Notes: generated by a model from the sequence alone, not told the origin. Positions 4,357-10,905 are shown, counted from the stretch's first letter. The stretch is 12,567 nt of DNA from an uncultured archaeon (GCA_964583985.1 CAZOYD010000085.1:1-12567); one strand, 5' to 3'. Translations and numbers: made by a program.

Positions 4357-6282
4357 CTAACAACGAGGGGATCGCTTAATCCTCGTCCAACCTTGATCTA
4401 AAATATAATCATAATCTTTTTCATATACTCTGTTAAAGTAAGAAACATGTTCAGAAACTTTTGATAAAATTAATTTCTGTTCATGTTCAGTAATAGAATA
4501 GATTTGAAATATGAGTTTATCCAATTCCCTGGTTGAATAATGAGTAGTATCATCAAAATTTCCACCAGTATTCGCTAAATAGTTCGAAATGAAATCTACT
4601 CTTTCGGAGATCTCTTCCTTTATATCTTCTCCGCATCTCTTAACCGGAAAATGACGAATCATGTACTGATTTAAATTAATAGTTGTACCTTTCTGATTAT
4701 TAATTCCAAAAATGCAATAAAATTGCATTAACGCTGAATTTATAATTCCACAAAGATATTTTAGTTCAATGATATTTTTATGAAGTATCGAATATATTGA
4801 GGAGGTAAAACAAACTTTCTTTTCTGTATAAACTGCTTGAGGAATTACGTTATTATGTTTTATTAATAACTTTTGATTATTATAATATTCAAAATTTCGC
4901 CCCTTTAGAGAATAAGGGCTAATAAATTCAATATTAAACGATTTATTTGGCTTAATTAAATAAAAATCAAAATCATCTTTCGCATTAATGAACAAGCAAG
5001 AAGCATTGGTATGTTCATTGATGATAGCTCTAATTTCCTTTAATCCTTTATCTTCTTCTCCTCGAATGAAAAGAGGGAAATCAAGGGTATTTATATAATT
5101 AAGATCTCCAACATTTTCAATTTTATCTATTAGGTTCAGAATTTCAACGGTCGCTTTAATCCGTATTCTGTTTAATGGTATAGTTTCACTCTTGCAGTAA
5201 GGACAATTTAAATCTCTTGTATACACGTGGATCTTTTTTGATTTCTTTCCCATTTGGCACTTTGAACTTTGACACATTCTTAATTTATCAAATGATTGAT
5301 CATTATACGTGATTATTTTATTATTCGGATAATCCCATACCTCTAAATTCTTAAATTTTTTACCTTTATTTTGATAAATTACGATTTGAACTTCATTAGT
5401 AGCTTTTTTAAATAAATTTGGACCAATATCAATTATTTTTAGTAAATTCGCTTTTAATAAAAGTAGATTTCTAAATCTAACGTAGCCCTGCCGTAATAAA
5501 AAGCTTTTAGGGACTAAAAAACCAATCAAACCATCACTCCATTCTAATGCTTTCAAAATGAAAATACAATAAATATCATTAACAAAAACGCTTTCAGTTC
5601 TTAATTTTTGTTTTATTGATTTTTCTAAGATATTTCCATAAGGAGGATTGCCAACTAAAAGTCCAAACTTTAAGGTTGGAGGATCTTTTATAATATCTCT
5701 AACAGTAATATGAGATTCTAAAACACATAATTTATTTAGTAAATCAATTGATTTGTTTTTTGATATATTTCTCAGCAATTTTAAAATACATAGTTTAATC
5801 GAATTATCATTTATATCATACCCATAAACATTGCTAATGATCACTTCTTTAACTGCTTCAAATTCATCTATAGGACAAATTCTTTCATATAGATTAGTTA
5901 TAATATCAATATAGCTTAGAAGAAATACTCCTGAACCACAAGATGGATCACAAATCAAAGTTTTTTTAAGTAGATTTAAAATAGATTTAGATTCAACTTG
6001 ATTTAATGATTTTATTTCACCCAAACTTTTTAGATTCACATTTTCAATTCGAGAATTAATATATTCCATAAGCGTTTGGGAAATAATATATTCCGCTATG
6101 TATTTTTGAGTGAAAAATACTCCTTCATTTTTTCTTTTACTATAATTTTGTAAAAAAAAATGTTCAATCTCATTAATTTGGCTTAATTTTTCCTCAAGAG
6201 CTATTTCATTATCTGACTTTAAAGCTATTCGGACAGATTCATATAATTCAAAGATAGATTGATTATTTTGCACATTCACCAT
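4357..6282 (-). CDS. N6-adenine DNA methyltransferase, gamma class (TaqI/Eco57I-like), with C-terminal target-recognition region
   Basis: EGVFFTQKYIAEYI (motif X), ICDPSCGSGVFL (motif I), NVYGYDI, VGNPPYG (motif IV), GFLVPKSFL, and TaqI-C-like LKYLCGIINSALMQFY...FPV. Confidence 0.88.
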   Translation of the reverse strand: MVNVQNNQSIFELYESVRIALKSDNEIALEEKLSQINEIEHFFLQNYSKRKNEGVFFTQKYIAEYIISQTLMEYINSRIENVNLKSLGEIKSLNQVESKSILNLLKKTLICDPSCGSGVFLLSYIDIITNLYERICPIDEFEAVKEVIISNVYGYDINDNSIKLCILKLLRNISKNKSIDLLNKLCVLESHITVRDIIKDPPTLKFGLLVGNPPYGNILEKSIKQKLRTESVFVNDIYCIFILKALEWSDGLIGFLVPKSFLLRQGYVRFRNLLLLKANLLKIIDIGPNLFKKATNEVQIVIYQNKGKKFKNLEVWDYPNNKIITYNDQSFDKLRMCQSSKCQMGKKSKKIHVYTRDLNCPYCKSETIPLNRIRIKATVEILNLIDKIENVGDLNYINTLDFPLFIRGEEDKGLKEIRAIINEHTNASCLFINAKDDFDFYLIKPNKSFNIEFISPYSLKGRNFEYYNNQKLLIKHNNVIPQAVYTEKKVCFTSSIYSILHKNIIELKYLCGIINSALMQFYCIFGINNQKGTTINLNQYMIRHFPVKRCGEDIKEEISERVDFISNYLANTGGNFDDTTHYSTRELDKLIFQIYSITEHEQKLILSKVSEHVSYFNRVYEKDYDYILDQGWTRIKRSPRC

Positions 6283-6362: not shown

Positions 6363-6860
6363 ATGACAAAGCAAGACGAAGAAGAAGATTATCACGGAGT
6401 CGCTCCAATAAAGCCCATAATTAAAAAAATGAAAAAGGATTATGATAAAGATCCTAAAGGATGGAGTGTTGTTGGATCTCATGATGATCAAGGGAATTCA
6501 GATACAGTAATACTTAAAAATTCTAATGCATTTTGGCTGAAATCAAAAATGCTTAGCCCATATTCAGCATTATCTATGGGTTCGATTGTTAAAAATATAG
6601 ATAAAGAAATTGATGAGAGTATTGGTATTAAAAGAGAATTATCTCCCGATGAAATGCTTCGATTATTTGGCATGATAGTTCCAATTAACCCTGATAAAAA
6701 TATTATCGCTACCGGAATCGAAAGATATTCTCAACATCAAGGAAATATCTTGAAAAAAGTAATTTATGAACAAAATCCAAATTTAGATCATCAGCTTGCA
6801 AAAAGAATTGATGATGAATTTACCAAAAAATATCCACAACGAAAGAACATGTACATTTGA
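6363..6860 (+). CDS. Hypothetical protein, 165 aa
   Basis: Non-overlapping ATG ORF with typical composition, divergent from the MTase. No recognisable motif. Confidence 0.75.
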   Translation: MTKQDEEEDYHGVAPIKPIIKKMKKDYDKDPKGWSVVGSHDDQGNSDTVILKNSNAFWLKSKMLSPYSALSMGSIVKNIDKEIDESIGIKRELSPDEMLRLFGMIVPINPDKNIIATGIERYSQHQGNILKKVIYEQNPNLDHQLAKRIDDEFTKKYPQRKNMYI

Positions 6861-6880: not shown

Positions 6881-7306
6881 TTAGGGTATTTTCTCTTTTA
6901 AAATGTCAACTTCACCTTTCCCTTTTATTATGGGAAAATTCGAAGAATAAGTAGCTGAATTCCTAATTAATTCAGCAATGAATGCCTTAATTTTTTCTGG
7001 TCCAGATTTATCTTCGAGTGACTTTGCAAAATCTTTAATCAAGGGAATCTTTAAGTCTTCAACGTAGAAAGATACTCCCTTTTCAACTTCTTCCATTAAG
7101 AATTGAAAGGATAATTCTGCCGATCTTTCTGTTTTCGACAAGGGCTCATCTGGATCTTCATATGTGTATGAGATTTCCGTCCATCGTTCACCGTTGGAAT
7201 CTGCGGGTACCATTCCAAAAATATAATCGCTTGTATGTAACCAAATAGGCGTTCCATTATCAAAAGAAGCATCAATAATAGTCTTCATTTCTTCACTCAT
7301 GATCAC
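6881..7306 (-). CDS. Hypothetical acidic protein, about 140 aa (start may be ATG at 7300)
   Basis: Non-overlapping ORF with protein-like composition. No recognisable motif. Confidence 0.75.
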   Translation of the reverse strand: MIMSEEMKTIIDASFDNGTPIWLHTSDYIFGMVPADSNGERWTEISYTYEDPDEPLSKTERSAELSFQFLMEEVEKGVSFYVEDLKIPLIKDFAKSLEDKSGPEKIKAFIAELIRNSATYSSNFPIIKGKGEVDILKEKIP

Positions 7307-7429: not shown

Positions 7430-8215
7430 ATGAGACAACTAAATTACGATGAATTATGTTCTGATATTCAGTCTTGGATCAAACTATATGTACGTTCAGC
7501 AGGAGCAAAAGGAGTAGTAGTTGGGTTAAGTGGGGGAATCGATAGCGCTGTCACTGCTGCACTTTCGGTCAATGCAGTTGGGAAAAGAAATGTGATTACT
7601 GTTGGATTACCATGTGAGTCCATGAATAAAGATTTAGAAGATGCAAAATTAGTAGCAGAGTCATTAGGGGTTCGATTTTATACTGTAGATCTCTCTTCGA
7701 CATATAAGGAACTCTTAGGTTCTCTTCCTTCACAAATTGAAAAAAAAAAAATTTCATTATCAAATATCAAACCAAGATTGAGAATGTTAACTTTGTACTT
7801 TATAGCTCAATCAATGGGATATATTGTTGGTGGCACGGGAAACAGAACTGAGATTGCAATTGGTTATTTCACGAAATATGGTGATATAGAATTACTTAAC
7901 GTATTTCTACACTAAGGTGGTGTGGATATTGAACCAATTGGAATGCTTTATAAAAGAGAAGTAAGAGAGATCGCCAAAATTTTGAAGATCCCCGATAGAA
8001 TTATTATGAGAGTGCCGAGTGCTGGACTTTGGCCAGATCAGACCGATGAAGGTGAAATTGGGTTAACCTACGATAAGCTAGATGAAATCATATATAGAAT
8101 CGATTACAATTTAACTCTCGATAACTTAAACAATGAAAACGTTGAAAAAGTTAAAAATATGATGAAACTTGCTGAACATAAGCAAAAAATGCCACCTACA
8201 TACCGAATAGATTAA
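7430..8215 (+). CDS. nadE: NH3-dependent NAD+ synthetase, join(7430..7885,7916..8215), 251 aa after removal of a 30-nt intron
   Basis: VVGLSGGIDSAV (PP-loop), NIKPRLRMLTLY, GTGNRTE, GYFTKYGD|GGVDIEPIG, LYKREVR, PSAGLW..QTDE.EIGLTY. Both halves are in the same frame and otherwise intact. Confidence 0.93.
7886..7915 (+). other. Putative bulge-helix-bulge (tRNA-endonuclease-type) intron in nadE mRNA
   Basis: Central helix GGUG(7880-83)/CACU(7910-13), bulges AUA(7884-86) and AAG(7914-16), intron stem UAGAA/UUCUA plus UAC/GUA, exon stem UAU/GUG. Cuts after the 2nd nt of each bulge remove exactly 7886-7915 and restore YGD-GG. Confidence 0.85.
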
Positions 8216-8317
8216 AAACTGAATGATTTAAATCAAGATGATGTCAATAAAGTACTTAACCTAATGAAAAAAGCAGAACATAAAATTCAAATGCCACCTT
8301 CTTACAAGTTCTCATAA
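8216..8317 (+). pseudogene. Diverged orphan duplicate of the nadE 3' end
   Basis: In frame after the nadE stop, KLNDLNQDDVNKVLNLMKKAEHKIQMPPSYKFS* aligns with the NadE C-terminus TLDNLNNENVEKVKNMMKLAEHKQKMPPTYRID*. Confidence 0.8.
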
Positions 8318-8327
8318 AGAGTCCAAT

Positions 8328-9794
8328 TCATAAACTGGAGATTAATCTCCTTATTGTTGTTATCCGTTCGGTGATTTGTAACATTTTTGTTTTTATCTCA
8401 TCATTCTTTTGTTTATATTGCGTATCCGCAATTGAGCCCTTGTTATAACTCGCTTCTAATTCCTTGAATCCTTTTTCGACGGCATATCTCTTGCCCTCTA
8501 GAGCAATTAACTCTTGATAAAGAGCATCTTTATCAACTGGCATTTCATTAGTATCTTGTTCAGGAACGTGTTGACTTTCAGCATTTTTTTTGGTAAAATC
8601 TATAAATGAATTAATATGGATTTGTTCAGATTCTTTTATTTCTTTAACTTCAATAATCGGTTTAATATCTTTGTTTTCCCTGGTTTTGGGGTACTCTATT
8701 TCTTTTTTTGGCAATATGTGTTGCTTTTCTCCAACTTGTGAAAGTACATTGAATAGATCGTTTCCGCTTGATTTTATTGATTCCGTTTCAACTTCCTCCA
8801 CACTCACGCTTCTAATTTTAGGAGGTTCAACAGAAAAAGCTTGAATTATTTTTTCCTCGGTTGTTTCTACTACGTGAGGAGACTGATTAGAACTCTCTCT
8901 TACCATAGGCATTATTTTTCTCTTTTCTGTTATGATTGGTCTATTCTTAGGCTCTTCTATTACCTCAGTTATGATTTCTGGTTTCTTATTAGCTTTATTA
9001 ATAGGAATAGGAGTTAAATCTTTATTCACAACTTCCCTTGCAATCAAGGTTTCCGGTTTTGTAGGAATAGGAGTAAAATTTTCAAGTTCCACTTTTTTTA
9101 AGGGTATTTTCACTTCTTCAATTACCGGTTCTTTTTGTTCCTCTTTTGGAAGAATAGGTGAAATCGATTTTTCAATCTGAATTTCAGAGAGGGTCATCTT
9201 TTTTATATTTGGAATTTTAATCACGGGTGGAGCCAGTTTAGGGGTTTTTCTAGGAGTAATTTTTTGAACGTTCTTCTCATGTGAAATCTTATTTATCGTT
9301 TCGCTTTTTTTGTCTAACTCTTTCTTTAGACCATCAATTGTATTCTTTAGACTATCAATCTCTCCCTTGAATCGCTCAGAAACTTCACTCACGATTTCAT
9401 TTACATCTAAATTGGATGGAGTTTGTGCTATTTCACTCGATTTTTTTATTTGAACATCCTCTAATTGCTTACTAGTTTTTTCTGTTAACTCTAAAGTGTG
9501 ATCTATCTCTAATTTGTCATAAAAGTTTAAAAATACTTTAATATCCCCTGGAATTGTGGTTTCTGTGAACCAAAAATCTAACGTATCCCATTTTTCAAGT
9601 TTATCTCTTATCACTTCAACAAGATCTCTTTGTTCGGGGGTCAACAATTTACTTGCTAACCCATTGAATAATAGCAATAATTGCTCTCGAGCATCGATTT
9701 CATCATCTGGTGTCGGTTCCTTTTCTGTAAGAGAAATAAATATCTCTTTAATCGATGCCAATGACTCCTCAAATTTTTGTTCTTCTGTCATCAA
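8328..9794 (-). CDS. Hypothetical 488-aa protein: helical N-domain, coiled coil, Pro/Glu/Lys-rich linker, C-terminal helical hairpin (start may be ATG at 9791)
   Basis: Long ORF with a heptad segment (FKGEIDSLKNTIDGLKKELDKK), a low-complexity middle with repeated TPIP, and C-terminal ELEASYNKGSIADTQYKQK. Confidence 0.8.
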   Translation of the reverse strand: MMTEEQKFEESLASIKEIFISLTEKEPTPDDEIDAREQLLLLFNGLASKLLTPEQRDLVEVIRDKLEKWDTLDFWFTETTIPGDIKVFLNFYDKLEIDHTLELTEKTSKQLEDVQIKKSSEIAQTPSNLDVNEIVSEVSERFKGEIDSLKNTIDGLKKELDKKSETINKISHEKNVQKITPRKTPKLAPPVIKIPNIKKMTLSEIQIEKSISPILPKEEQKEPVIEEVKIPLKKVELENFTPIPTKPETLIAREVVNKDLTPIPINKANKKPEIITEVIEEPKNRPIITEKRKIMPMVRESSNQSPHVVETTEEKIIQAFSVEPPKIRSVSVEEVETESIKSSGNDLFNVLSQVGEKQHILPKKEIEYPKTRENKDIKPIIEVKEIKESEQIHINSFIDFTKKNAESQHVPEQDTNEMPVDKDALYQELIALEGKRYAVEKGFKELEASYNKGSIADTQYKQKNDEIKTKMLQITERITTIRRLISSL

Positions 9795-10056: not shown

Positions 10057-10449
10057 ATTAGTAGAGATGAAAAATGGGCTATTATTCATCTGTTTAGCTC
10101 ATATAATAATACCATCGTGACCGCAACTGATTTGAGCGGTGGCGAGACCTTCGCAAAATGCACTGGTGGAATGGTTGTAAAAGCTAGTAGGGATGAATCC
10201 AACCCCTACGCTGCCATGCAGTGTGGCTTTCGAGTTGCAAATGACATACGCGATAAAGGAATTACTGGTGTTCATATTAAAGTGAGGGCACCAGGAGGAA
10301 ACAAGAATACTACACCTGGTCCAGGAGCGCAAGCTTGCATTAGAGCACTCGCCCGATCTGGCTTGAAAATAGGTAGAATAGAGGAGGTCACTCCCAGATC
10401 TCACGATCACTGCAGGCGTAAGGGTGGTCATCGAGGGCGACGAGTTTAA
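10057..10449 (+). CDS. rps11: 30S ribosomal protein S11 (uS11), 130 aa, probable ATT start
   Basis: The frame extends upstream of the called GTG to include the conserved [24 protein letters not shown]. Also [45 protein letters not shown]. In-frame TAA at 10042-44 and SD AAGGTG at 10043-48. Confidence 0.96.
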
Positions 10450-10498
10450 AGACTTTTTCTTATTATTTTTTATTCCGTTTATAAGAATCAATAAGGCC

Positions 10499-10530
10499 TT
10501 CTCTTTTAAAAATTCTAATTTAAAAGAGAA
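10499..10530. repeat. Perfect 12-bp inverted repeat downstream of rps11
   Basis: TTCTCTTTTAAA (10499-10510) / TTTAAAAGAGAA (10519-10530) with an 8-nt loop. Confidence 0.7.
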
Positions 10531-10905
10531 ATTAGGGTATGGGGCTTTGTTTAATGCTCTTATATTCTCGAAGATGTGATTATCCTTGAAGTAGCTTTTG
10601 AAGAAGTATTTTAATATTACCATTAACATAAAGCAATATACCTGATACAGTTGGAATCCTGAAATATTTATTATTTTATTTCTAGATTATGTGTTTTTCA
10701 ATCTTGAAGGTCAGCTAAATCGAATTTAAAATTTGTTAATAGGGAAATTCTATTTACAGATCCCAATAAACATGATCTTTTTTATCTTACTTGTTAAGAA
10801 AACGATATTTGCTAAGAAAATGTGAGTTTGTATAAACGTTTAAATAAGAAGTTATAATTTTTAGTATCATCTATAAAAAAATAATTTTTATGAATGTGAA
10901 GTATA

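What the first reader, a model, noticed from the sequence alone, without database searches (positions are those of the whole stretch)
7877..7919. Canonical bulge-helix-bulge intron inside the mRNA of NAD+ synthetase (nadE)
Seen in sequence: nadE is split by a 30-nt insert, ATAGAATTACTTAACGTATTTCTACACTAA (7886-7915). It ends in an in-frame TAA and sits in the middle of the conserved GYFTKYGD-GG motif. Sliding the 30-nt removal by one base gives Glu or Ser instead, so the boundary is fixed. Independently, the RNA folds as a textbook BHB. The 4-bp central helix is G7880-U7913, G7881-C7912, U7882-A7911, G7883-C7910, and the 3-nt bulges are AUA (7884-86) and AAG (7914-16). The inner stem is UAGAA/UUCUA plus UAC/GUA around a UUAAC loop, and the outer pairs are U7879-G7917, A7878-U7918, U7877-G7919. 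Established: the archaeal splicing endonuclease EndA cuts after the 2nd nucleotide of each bulge, here 7885/7886 and 7915/7916, which are exactly the boundaries the protein requires. BHB introns are common in tRNA/rRNA, while the well-documented mRNA case is crenarchaeal cbf5. Inference: this is EndA/RtcB-dependent splicing of a core metabolic mRNA, in a probable Asgard archaeon. I know of no described nadE case. Automatic annotation would call such a gene a pseudogene, so more such introns could be hidden.
Basis: partly seen in the sequence, partly recalled or inferred. Interest (0 to 1): 0.96.

Follow-up and report, generated by a model that had tools for sequence, protein, structure and literature searches.

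The report
tRNA-type mini-intron splits Asgard nadE
The NAD synthetase gene of this Asgard archaeon is interrupted by a 30-base insert shaped like an archaeal tRNA intron; seven related genomes keep that shape through compensating mutations, so the mRNA almost certainly has to be cut and rejoined, which the papers I could search report inside a coding sequence for only one archaeal gene (cbf5).

Summary
A 30-nt insert (7886-7915, in-frame TAA) splits nadE. The Pfam NAD_synthase match ends at profile position 143 in exon 1 and resumes at 144 in exon 2. The flanks form a canonical hBHBh' motif whose predicted cut sites are the boundaries the protein needs.

The same 30-nt insert sits at the same codon boundary in 7 genomes of 5 genera of one Asgard family, and in at least 20 metagenomic protein clusters truncated at 161 aa. 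Across the seven, 93% of pair cells pair (31-49% in slid controls), 8 pairs show double-sided compensatory changes, and the central helix pairs in 28/28 cells. All seven spliced genes are intact; dN/dS, computed for six of them, is 0.09-0.21. Wobble positions in the exons support bracketing helices only in intron-bearing alleles. One allele (G016) is a mosaic that acquired the intron with about 95 nt of flanking exon. The genome encodes (alpha-beta)2-type EndA and RtcB.

No RNA evidence exists: no spliced junction was found in public contigs. Earlier notes of this scan report similar mini-introns in other genes of this same genome. I verified one (leuS) independently; the nadE case itself was not noted before.

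Verdict: a very probable EndA/RtcB-spliced mRNA intron, a new member of a kind known only from cbf5.

The parts
7430..7885 (+). nadE exon 1 (152 codons, ends ...GYFTKYGD; contains the SGGIDS P-loop)
   Evidence: Pfam NAD_synthase E=5.8e-43, profile 3-143; ORF list
7886..7915 (+). 30-nt BHB mini-intron, phase 0, ending in an in-frame UAA (7913-7915)
   Evidence: The same length and site occur in 7 genomes of 5 genera. The 30-mer is single-copy in the genome.
7916..8215 (+). nadE exon 2 (99 codons plus stop, starts GGVDIEPIG)
   Evidence: Pfam NAD_synthase E=7.9e-25, profile 144-242
7877..7919 (+). hBHBh' core. Outer helix 7877-79/7917-19; central 4-bp helix 7880-83/7910-13; 3-nt bulges 7884-86 and 7914-16; inner stem-loop 7887-7909. 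Predicted cuts at 7885|7886 and 7915|7916.
   Evidence: fold; covariation. The central helix pairs in 28/28 cells, including U-A to C-G in G054.
7861..7872 (+). 5' strands of two exon-exon helices that bracket the BHB (7861-65 and 7868-72)
   Evidence: RNAalifold; pair counts. The wobble-position pairs form in 78-89% of intron-bearing alleles against 29-43% of intron-less alleles.
7922..7936 (+). 3' strands of the same exon-exon helices (7922-26 pairs with 7868-72; 7932-36 pairs with 7861-65)

Best explanation
The 30 nt at 7886-7915 are a tRNA-type (bulge-helix-bulge) intron in the nadE pre-mRNA.

Shown here by computation: the last codons of exon 1 (GGUG) pair with CACU near the 3' end of the insert to form the 4-bp central helix. 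This helix is flanked by two 3-nt bulges, an inner stem-loop made only of intron, and an outer helix extended by about 10 more exon-exon pairs. The geometry is conserved by compensatory change in 7 genomes.

Inferred from the established properties of the enzymes: the (alpha-beta)2 splicing endonuclease EndA cuts after the second nucleotide of each bulge (7885|7886 and 7915|7916). RtcB then joins the exons, and probably circularises the 30-mer. The spliced mRNA encodes a 251-aa NH3-type NAD synthetase with an intact YGDGGVD loop.

Unspliced mRNA would terminate at the UAA built from the last central-helix base and the 3' bulge, giving an N-terminal 161-aa fragment.

The intron is polymorphic among relatives. 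In at least one lineage (G016) it arrived by recombination together with about 95 nt of flanking exon.
For: (1) Seamless join: Pfam profile 143|144, phase 0.
(2) The canonical BHB cut sites coincide with the boundaries the protein requires.
(3) A 30-nt insert sits at the identical site in G000, G016, G054, G056, G079, G087 and G061, five genera in all. At least 20 protein clusters of exactly 161 aa exist in public data, with conserved stem-encoding ends and a hypervariable middle that encodes the loop.
(4) Covariation: 93.1% of cells paired against 31-49% when slid; 8 pairs with double-sided changes; 0/500 shuffles reach the observed score; central helix 28/28 (six-sequence version; independent RNAalifold prediction).
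(5) All seven spliced genes are intact (251-253 aa); pairwise dN/dS, computed for six of them (G061 not included), is 0.09-0.21.
(6) Synonymous exon sites pair only where the intron is present.
(7) Contigs whose nadE is 9% diverged carry an identical intron, and the only variant seen is a loop substitution.
(8) The genome encodes a catalytic and a structural EndA subunit and RtcB. PMC5829648 reports the (alpha-beta)2 type with the L1 loop in Asgard.
(9) A second interrupted gene in the same genome (leuS, C64:4237-4266) passes the same seam test.
(10) ARAGORN finds only 22 tRNA genes, 13 with introns, so BHB splicing is heavily used here.
Against: There is no RNA-level evidence. A search for the exact spliced junction in metagenome contigs returned only the unspliced form, and no full-length protein above 70% identity exists in the protein collection. 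Nearest-neighbour energies favour a slightly different register (5-bp helix, 2-nt bulge), and in G016 and G054 the MFE is not the BHB; enforcing it costs 5-8 kcal/mol there. Spliced G016 would read YGD-SGVD, with Ser at a Gly conserved in all other short-type copies. The genome also has a glutamine-dependent NAD synthetase (C67), so this gene need not be essential. My motif-plus-ORF genome scan showed no overall enrichment over a mirror-image decoy. Seven sequences are few and related, so the shuffle statistics overstate significance.
Confidence: 0.85

Rival explanations
1. Decaying pseudogene: a 30-nt insertion scar with a stop codon has inactivated nadE, and the glutamine-dependent paralogue covers the function.
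For: There is an in-frame stop, and a second NAD synthetase is present at G000:C67. Gene callers report a truncated 161-aa product.
Against: The same insert is kept in 7 genomes of 5 genera whose exons have diverged to 57-81% aa identity (six compared) with saturated synonymous sites. Even so, every copy is otherwise intact, and dN/dS is 0.09-0.21 in the six pairs computed, including the closest pair. The insert keeps its length and structure through compensatory changes.
Confidence: 0.03
2. Translational bypassing (a T4 gene 60-like hop): ribosomes take off at one codon and land about 30-36 nt downstream without any RNA processing, with the hairpin acting as the bypass element.
For: There is a stable hairpin inside the gap and a stop codon in the gap. 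GGY codons lie on both sides (GGU...GGU in most copies, GGC...GGC in G054).
Against: A GGU-to-GGU hop would delete the conserved Asp-Gly (giving KYG-GVD). The flanking GGY codons do not match in G016 (AGU) or G061 (GGA). The G054 change in the intron (A to G at column 63) is explained only by the exon-intron central helix. The two 3-nt bulges and the 4-bp spacing, which mean nothing for bypassing, are invariant. The stop lies at the end of the gap, not directly after a take-off codon.
Confidence: 0.04
3. Split gene or read-through: either the two halves are translated separately and assemble, or the stop is read through to give a 10-residue insertion in the loop.
For: G000 has a GTG at 7922 that opens a 97-aa ORF.
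Against: That GTG is GTA in five of the other six copies (GTT in G054), and the internal Met (IGMLYK) is Ala in all six, so there is no conserved start for exon 2. Several variants have additional in-frame stops (TGA at codon 2 in G054; tails LGINI* and LGIKL*). The middle codons are hypervariable, so no insert peptide is under selection.
Confidence: 0.03
4. Assembly or binning artefact, or a dispersed mobile mini-element (MITE-like) that happened to land in nadE.
For: The genome is a 138-contig MAG with 5% estimated contamination. G000's nadE groups with alleles of other genera in the gene tree.
Against: The insert is present in six independent metagenome contigs and in seven genomes. The 30-mer has no other copy in the genome at up to 7 substitutions. 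There are no target-site duplications or terminal inverted repeats beyond the BHB itself.
Confidence: 0.01

Closest known systems
cbf5 pre-mRNA BHB intron of Desulfurococcales and Sulfolobales (Watanabe 2002; Yokobori 2009, PMC2738675)
   Same: A BHB-type intron inside a protein-coding sequence, in archaea that have the heterotetrameric (alpha-beta)2 EndA. It is small (tRNA-intron size range), patchily present among relatives, and mis-annotated by gene callers.
   Different: A different phylum (Asgard, not Crenarchaeota) and a different kind of gene (a metabolic enzyme, not an RNA-modification enzyme). The length is a constant 30 nt. There is evidence here for lateral acquisition by exon co-conversion, whereas the cbf5 story was told as one gain plus losses. 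The cbf5 intron has RT-PCR and in vitro cleavage evidence; this one has none.
Archaeal pre-tRNA/rRNA BHB introns (hBHBh' motif cut by EndA, joined by RtcB)
   Same: Identical motif geometry: two 3-nt bulges, a 4-bp helix, and cuts after the second bulge nucleotide. The same enzymes are encoded in the genome, and the tRNA genes of this genome are heavily interrupted (preprint 10.64898/2026.10.13.758758 for Asgard tRNA genes).
   Different: The host RNA is an mRNA. The outer helix is built from codons of a conserved peptide motif, and the intron carries an in-frame stop.
BHB intron in the 5' UTR of Haloferax volcanii HVO_1309 (PMC7714728)
   Same: An EndA substrate in an mRNA, detected as a circular excised intron.
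   Different: It lies in the untranslated leader (46 nt), so splicing is not needed to restore a reading frame.
IRE1/RtcB splicing of HAC1/XBP1 mRNA in eukaryotes
   Same: Spliceosome-independent excision of a short intron from a coding mRNA, by a structure-specific endonuclease followed by an RNA ligase (RtcB for XBP1 in metazoa; HAC1 in yeast uses the tRNA ligase Trl1), which changes the protein that is made (from my own knowledge of the field and PMC13149111).
   Different: A different endonuclease (IRE1 recognises paired stem-loops, not a BHB). It is regulated by ER stress; no regulation is known here.

Membership tests
Archaeal BHB (hBHBh') intron | Two 3-nt bulges on opposite strands separated by a 4-bp helix | tested here: met
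   The G000 pairs were verified. The central helix pairs in 28/28 cells and bulge sizes are invariant in 7 sequences. Caveat: thermodynamic MFEs prefer a 5-bp/2-nt register.
Archaeal BHB (hBHBh') intron | Flanking helices h (exon side) and h' (intron side) | tested here: met
   Outer helix 90.5% of cells paired, inner helix 89.3%, with 4 compensatory pairs. Further exon-exon helices are 91-97% paired.
Archaeal BHB (hBHBh') intron | Cleavage after the 2nd nucleotide of each bulge yields a functional mature RNA | tested here: met
   In silico only. The predicted cuts give a seamless NAD_synthase domain, profile 143|144, and intact 251-253 aa proteins in all 7 copies.
Archaeal BHB (hBHBh') intron | Host encodes splicing endonuclease EndA and ligase RtcB | tested here: met
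   PF01974+PF02778 in two genes, one with the catalytic Tyr/His and one without. RtcB E=3e-167, 523-aa open frame.
Archaeal BHB (hBHBh') intron | Actual excision and exon ligation in RNA (spliced junction, circular or linear intron) | not testable with these tools
   No transcriptome was accessible. The junction search of metagenome contigs found only unspliced DNA.
cbf5-type pre-mRNA intron (BHB intron inside a CDS) | Intron interrupts a coding sequence that stays under purifying selection | tested here: met
   dN/dS 0.09-0.21 in six copies; no other defects in any of the seven.
cbf5-type pre-mRNA intron (BHB intron inside a CDS) | Orthology to the cbf5 intron (same gene and site) | tested here: not met
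   The host gene is nadE. This is an independent instance of the same kind, not a homologue of the cbf5 intron.
Group I / group II self-splicing intron | Ribozyme core of hundreds of nucleotides | tested here: not met
   The insert is 30 nt. There is no Rfam family hit in the window.

The most novel reading that the evidence does not exclude
nadE is one visible member of a population of roughly 30-nt tRNA-type mini-introns in this Asgard family. These introns sit in many protein-coding genes and are obligatorily spliced by EndA/RtcB. They also move between alleles and lineages by recombination with exon co-conversion (possibly seeded by reverse splicing), preferentially at sites where the codons of a conserved peptide motif are already self-complementary. 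On this reading, routine protein-enzyme-catalysed mRNA splicing, with intron gain and loss dynamics, exists in the closest prokaryotic relatives of eukaryotes, and current annotations hide it as truncated genes.
Probability: 0.5. Interest if true: 0.92.

Novelty: new member of a known kind. Interest (0 to 1): 0.8.

Why it matters
In the papers I could search, splicing of a coding sequence by the tRNA-splicing enzymes is documented in archaea for one gene only (cbf5, in Crenarchaeota).

A second, independent and comparatively well-supported case in a core metabolic gene of Asgard archaea shows that the phenomenon is neither a crenarchaeal nor a cbf5 oddity. It comes with a ready set of natural variants for experiments: seven genomes and at least 20 metagenomic clusters.

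It also bears on annotation. The gene is called as a 161-aa fragment in every public record I saw, so metabolic reconstructions of these organisms would wrongly score NH3-dependent NAD synthesis as absent or broken.

The exon wobble-site covariation and the co-conversion mosaic give a concrete, testable picture of how such introns persist and spread. That is relevant to how intron-bearing genes could exist before the spliceosome.

Tried and rejected
(1) Genome-wide BHB motif plus ORF-restoration scan against a mirror-image decoy. With strict geometry the totals were equal (36 against 35), with only a small excess at 28-32 nt (6 against 1). The relaxed geometry was pure noise (425 against 397). 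A loose BHB-like motif occurs about once per 75 nt per strand (about 50,000 hits per strand, lengths 18-48, over 3.8 Mb), so any close gene junction scores. I therefore make no genome-wide enrichment claim from this scan.

(2) Of the strict hits, C4:48869-48899 joins two separate genes (ATP-synt_D | V_ATPase_I) and is a false positive. C88:9330-9360 (SDH_beta | SDH_alpha) most likely joins adjacent genes too, though these two chains are fused in some organisms. C123 (AIRS family) is only plausible.

(3) Pattern hits in G076, G290 and G326 are chance matches in unrelated genes.

(4) The search for a spliced junction or an intron-less near-identical allele found none.

(5) Rfam gave no family in the window.

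I could not fetch DNA for the roughly 20 further 161-aa clusters, and used their protein tails instead.

(7) The mosaic test for G054 and G056 against intron-less congeners was inconclusive, because they are too diverged.

(8) Pseudogene, bypassing, split-gene, read-through, self-splicing and artefact readings were considered and rejected, as set out under the rival explanations.

(9) My first energy evaluation of the BHB (+3.4 kcal/mol) used mis-indexed apical pairs and should be ignored.

Full report
**1. The observation.** The window is contig C85 of a 3.8-Mb, 138-contig archaeal MAG. An NH3-type NAD synthetase gene runs from 7430 to 8215 on the + strand. Its reading frame is closed by a TAA at 7913-7915. 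Translating 7430-7885 and 7916-8212 separately gives Pfam NAD_synthase matches to profile positions 3-143 and 144-242. So exactly 30 nt (7886-7915) are surplus, in phase 0, inside the conserved GYFTKYGD|GGVD loop. The layout is outer helix, 4-bp helix, 3-nt bulge on the 5' strand, and inner helix, 4-bp helix, 3-nt bulge on the 3' strand. This is the canonical hBHBh' arrangement of archaeal pre-tRNAs, and the canonical cut after the second bulge nucleotide falls at 7885|7886 and 7915|7916, the boundaries the protein needs.

In my genome scan a strict BHB occurs with a frequency of about 4e-5 per pre-specified position and length, so the coincidence with the protein-defined boundaries is not expected by chance. 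Thermodynamics give moderate support. A 57-nt excerpt folds otherwise. From 77 nt upward the MFE contains the BHB bracketed by exon-exon helices (z = -3.44), although with U7879-A7914 extending the central helix to 5 bp. Enforcing the canonical register costs 4-8 kcal/mol across relatives.

**2. Organism and machinery.** The nearest named homologues are NAD+ synthases of Promethearchaeota, Lokiarchaeota and Hodarchaeota MAGs, so this is an Asgard archaeon. The genome encodes two EndA-family proteins with both Pfam endonuclease domains. One carries the catalytic Tyr and His, and the other has Phe and no His. This is the (alpha-beta)2 architecture that PMC5829648 reports for Asgard archaea, with the L1 loop linked to broad substrate range. 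RtcB is intact. ARAGORN finds only 22 tRNA genes in a genome scored 100% complete, 13 of them with introns. This fits the heavy interruption of Asgard tRNA genes described in preprint 10.64898/2026.10.13.758758.

**3. Comparative evidence.** A gapped pattern over the 153 genomes of the order, a looser one over 399 genomes of the phylum, and a motif-free census by open-frame length over the 134 genomes of the family all agree. They find a 30-nt insert at the identical codon boundary in G000, G016, G054, G056, G079, G087 and G061, which belong to five genera of one family, and nowhere else. About 105 other family genomes have the uninterrupted gene.

In the public protein collection, the six best-matching clusters (72-97% identity) and about 20 in all are exactly 161 aa, that is exon 1 plus nine intron codons. 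Full-length proteins appear only from 69% identity downward. The nine-residue tails have conserved ends (I/L-G/E... and ...F-L-H-stop, the stem and central-helix parts) and a hypervariable middle, sometimes with extra stops. That is what an RNA stem-loop predicts and a peptide does not. Six independent metagenome contigs carry the insert. Two of them, whose nadE is only 90.7% identical to the window, have a 30/30 identical intron, and the only variant seen is one loop substitution.

**4. Structure under selection.** On the ungapped seven-sequence alignment (A2), the BHB plus bracketing helices pair in 93.1% of cells, against 31-49% when the 3' partners are slid by 1-3 columns. Eight of 25 pairs show changes on both sides, and no shuffle out of 500 reaches the observed covariation score or compensatory count (six-sequence version).

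- The central helix pairs in 28/28 cells. In G054 a synonymous GGU-to-GGC change in exon 1 is matched by CACU-to-CGCU in the intron.
- The inner stem shows A-U/G-C, U-A/A-U and A-U/U-A exchanges.
- RNAalifold, given no structure, predicts the same fold.
- The shuffle control does not correct for relatedness and seven sequences are few. However, the intron-bearing alleles are scattered on the gene tree, which reduces that concern.

As a control for the exon-exon helices, I compared 9 distinct intron-bearing and 68 distinct intron-less alleles. Pairs at fixed codon positions form in both groups, so the coding sequence of this conserved motif is inherently self-complementary. The four pairs that involve wobble positions form in 78-89% of intron-bearing alleles but only 29-43% of intron-less alleles.

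**5. The gene is alive.** With the 30 nt removed, all seven genes give 251-253 aa proteins with the SGGIDS P-loop and no other lesion. Pairwise dN/dS, computed for six of them, is 0.09-0.21, including the closest pair (dS 0.5). This excludes a pseudogene.

Separate translation of exon 2 is unlikely, because the GTG at 7922 and the first internal Met are not conserved. Read-through is unlikely because of additional in-frame stops in some variants. A gene 60-like ribosomal hop would delete the conserved Asp-Gly, lacks matching take-off and landing codons in two of seven copies, and does not explain the exon-intron compensatory change or the invariant bulges. The 30-mer is single-copy in the genome, so it is not a dispersed repeat.

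**6. History.** On a maximum-likelihood tree of 34 NadE proteins, the intron-bearing alleles are not a clade. Well-supported branches force at least two changes, and parsimony needs four. G054, G056 and G016 each group with intron-less alleles of their own genus.

G016 is a mosaic. It is 92-99% identical at the nucleotide level to the intron-less G009 and G020 over the first 400 nt. Between alignment positions 450 and 545 (intron site at 483) it follows the intron-bearing G079/G087 at 16 of 17 informative sites, then returns to its kin. A second foreign tract lies near the 3' end (Fisher 8e-7, but the window was chosen after seeing the data). The foreign segment is the one in G016, because G009/G020 match the other alleles of their genus there. 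So in at least one lineage the intron was acquired by recombination together with about 95 nt of flanking exon. For G054 and G056 the kin are too diverged to tell.

**7. Mechanism.**
- Shown by computation: the fold, its conservation, the seamless join, and the presence of the enzymes.
- Inferred from the known enzymology of EndA and RtcB: cleavage in both bulges, exon ligation and probable intron circularisation.
- Inferred: unspliced mRNA ends translation at the UAA formed by the last central-helix base and the 3' bulge, which is conserved as UAA or UAG in all seven.
- Not shown: any RNA species. The exact spliced junction is absent from the metagenome contigs searched.

**8. Context and novelty.** The papers I could search report a BHB intron inside an archaeal coding sequence only for crenarchaeal cbf5, plus one 5'-UTR case in Haloferax. 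A 2020 paper says so explicitly. Searches combining Asgard or Prometheoarchaeum with BHB, intron, RtcB and mRNA found nothing on protein-coding genes.

Earlier notes of this scan report similar mini-introns in other genes of this same genome (cdhD, RNase HII, thiolase, a VWA gene, leuS, acetoacetate-CoA ligase, uL11). I treated these as leads. My own scan independently recovered one leuS intron (C64:4237-4266, junction DPNYY-K-WDQWFF), and the Pfam seam test confirmed it. The same test exposed one of my other strict hits as a plain gene junction and a second (SDH beta|alpha) as a probable one. My motif-based scan gave no genome-wide enrichment over a decoy, so I cannot say from my own work how many such introns exist. 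The nadE intron itself had not been noted before.

**9. Verdict.** This is a very probable EndA/RtcB-spliced mRNA intron (confidence 0.85). It is a new member of the kind represented so far by cbf5, in a new phylum and a metabolic gene, with unusually good comparative support and first evidence for lateral spread by co-conversion.

Noticed in passing
window 8216-8318 (+): Directly after the nadE stop, and in frame, lies a diverged second copy of the last ~33 codons (KLNDLNQDDVNKVLNLMKKAEHKIQMPPSYKFS*; 60% nt identity to 8116-8215). None of 11 relatives checked has it. It could be a tandem partial duplication or a recombination scar. An earlier scan note (e1-5794703) reads it as an allele-replacement scar.
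   Followed up: partly
L160 (G056:C143:3588-4040, minus strand) and L180 (G058:C29:204-656, minus strand): In genus g16 an exon-1-only nadE fragment (~158-aa open frame, ~48% identical to the query) lies immediately upstream of the intron-bearing nadE. It ends at ...GYFTKY, two codons before the intron site. The breakpoint next to the splice site might reflect recombination or an RNA-mediated event at the intron.
   Followed up: partly
G000:C64:4237-4266 (minus strand; L130): A 30-nt strict BHB insert splits a leucyl-tRNA synthetase gene (junction DPNYY-K-WDQWFF). Pfam tRNA-synt_1 continues across it. This is a second mRNA mini-intron in the same genome.
   Followed up: yes
G000:C123:4513-4542 (minus strand; L131): A 30-nt strict BHB insert lies in an AIR-synthase-family gene. 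Exon 2 starts at AIRS profile position 43, while exon 1 had no significant Pfam hit, so this is only a plausible intron.
   Followed up: partly
whole genome G000: ARAGORN finds only 22 tRNA genes (13 with introns of 8-53 nt, plus one call of 575 nt) in a genome scored 100% complete. Many tRNA genes are probably too interrupted to be detected.
   Followed up: no
L119 (G016 nadE), alignment positions 667-751: There is a second tract near the 3' end of G016 nadE that also follows the intron-bearing alleles rather than its close kin. In addition, the first codon of exon 2 is AGU (Ser) where all other copies have Gly.
   Followed up: partly
L182 (G082:C28, nadE): An intron-less nadE with an in-frame TAA inside exon 1 (GTSNRT*LVIGYFTKYGDGG, where relatives have Glu). 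It could be a nonsense mutation, a sequencing error or recoding.
   Followed up: no
window 7740-7751 (+): A run of 12 A inside nadE exon 1 (coding EKKKI). This is a slippage-prone homopolymer in an otherwise intact frame.
   Followed up: no
window 4357-6282 (-) and 8328-9794 (-): Neighbouring genes: an Eco57I/TaqI-type fused restriction-modification methylase (640 aa), and a 488-aa Lys/Glu-rich ORF with no Pfam match. Three further ORFs (6363-6860, 6881-7306, 10099-10629) also have no Pfam family.
   Followed up: no
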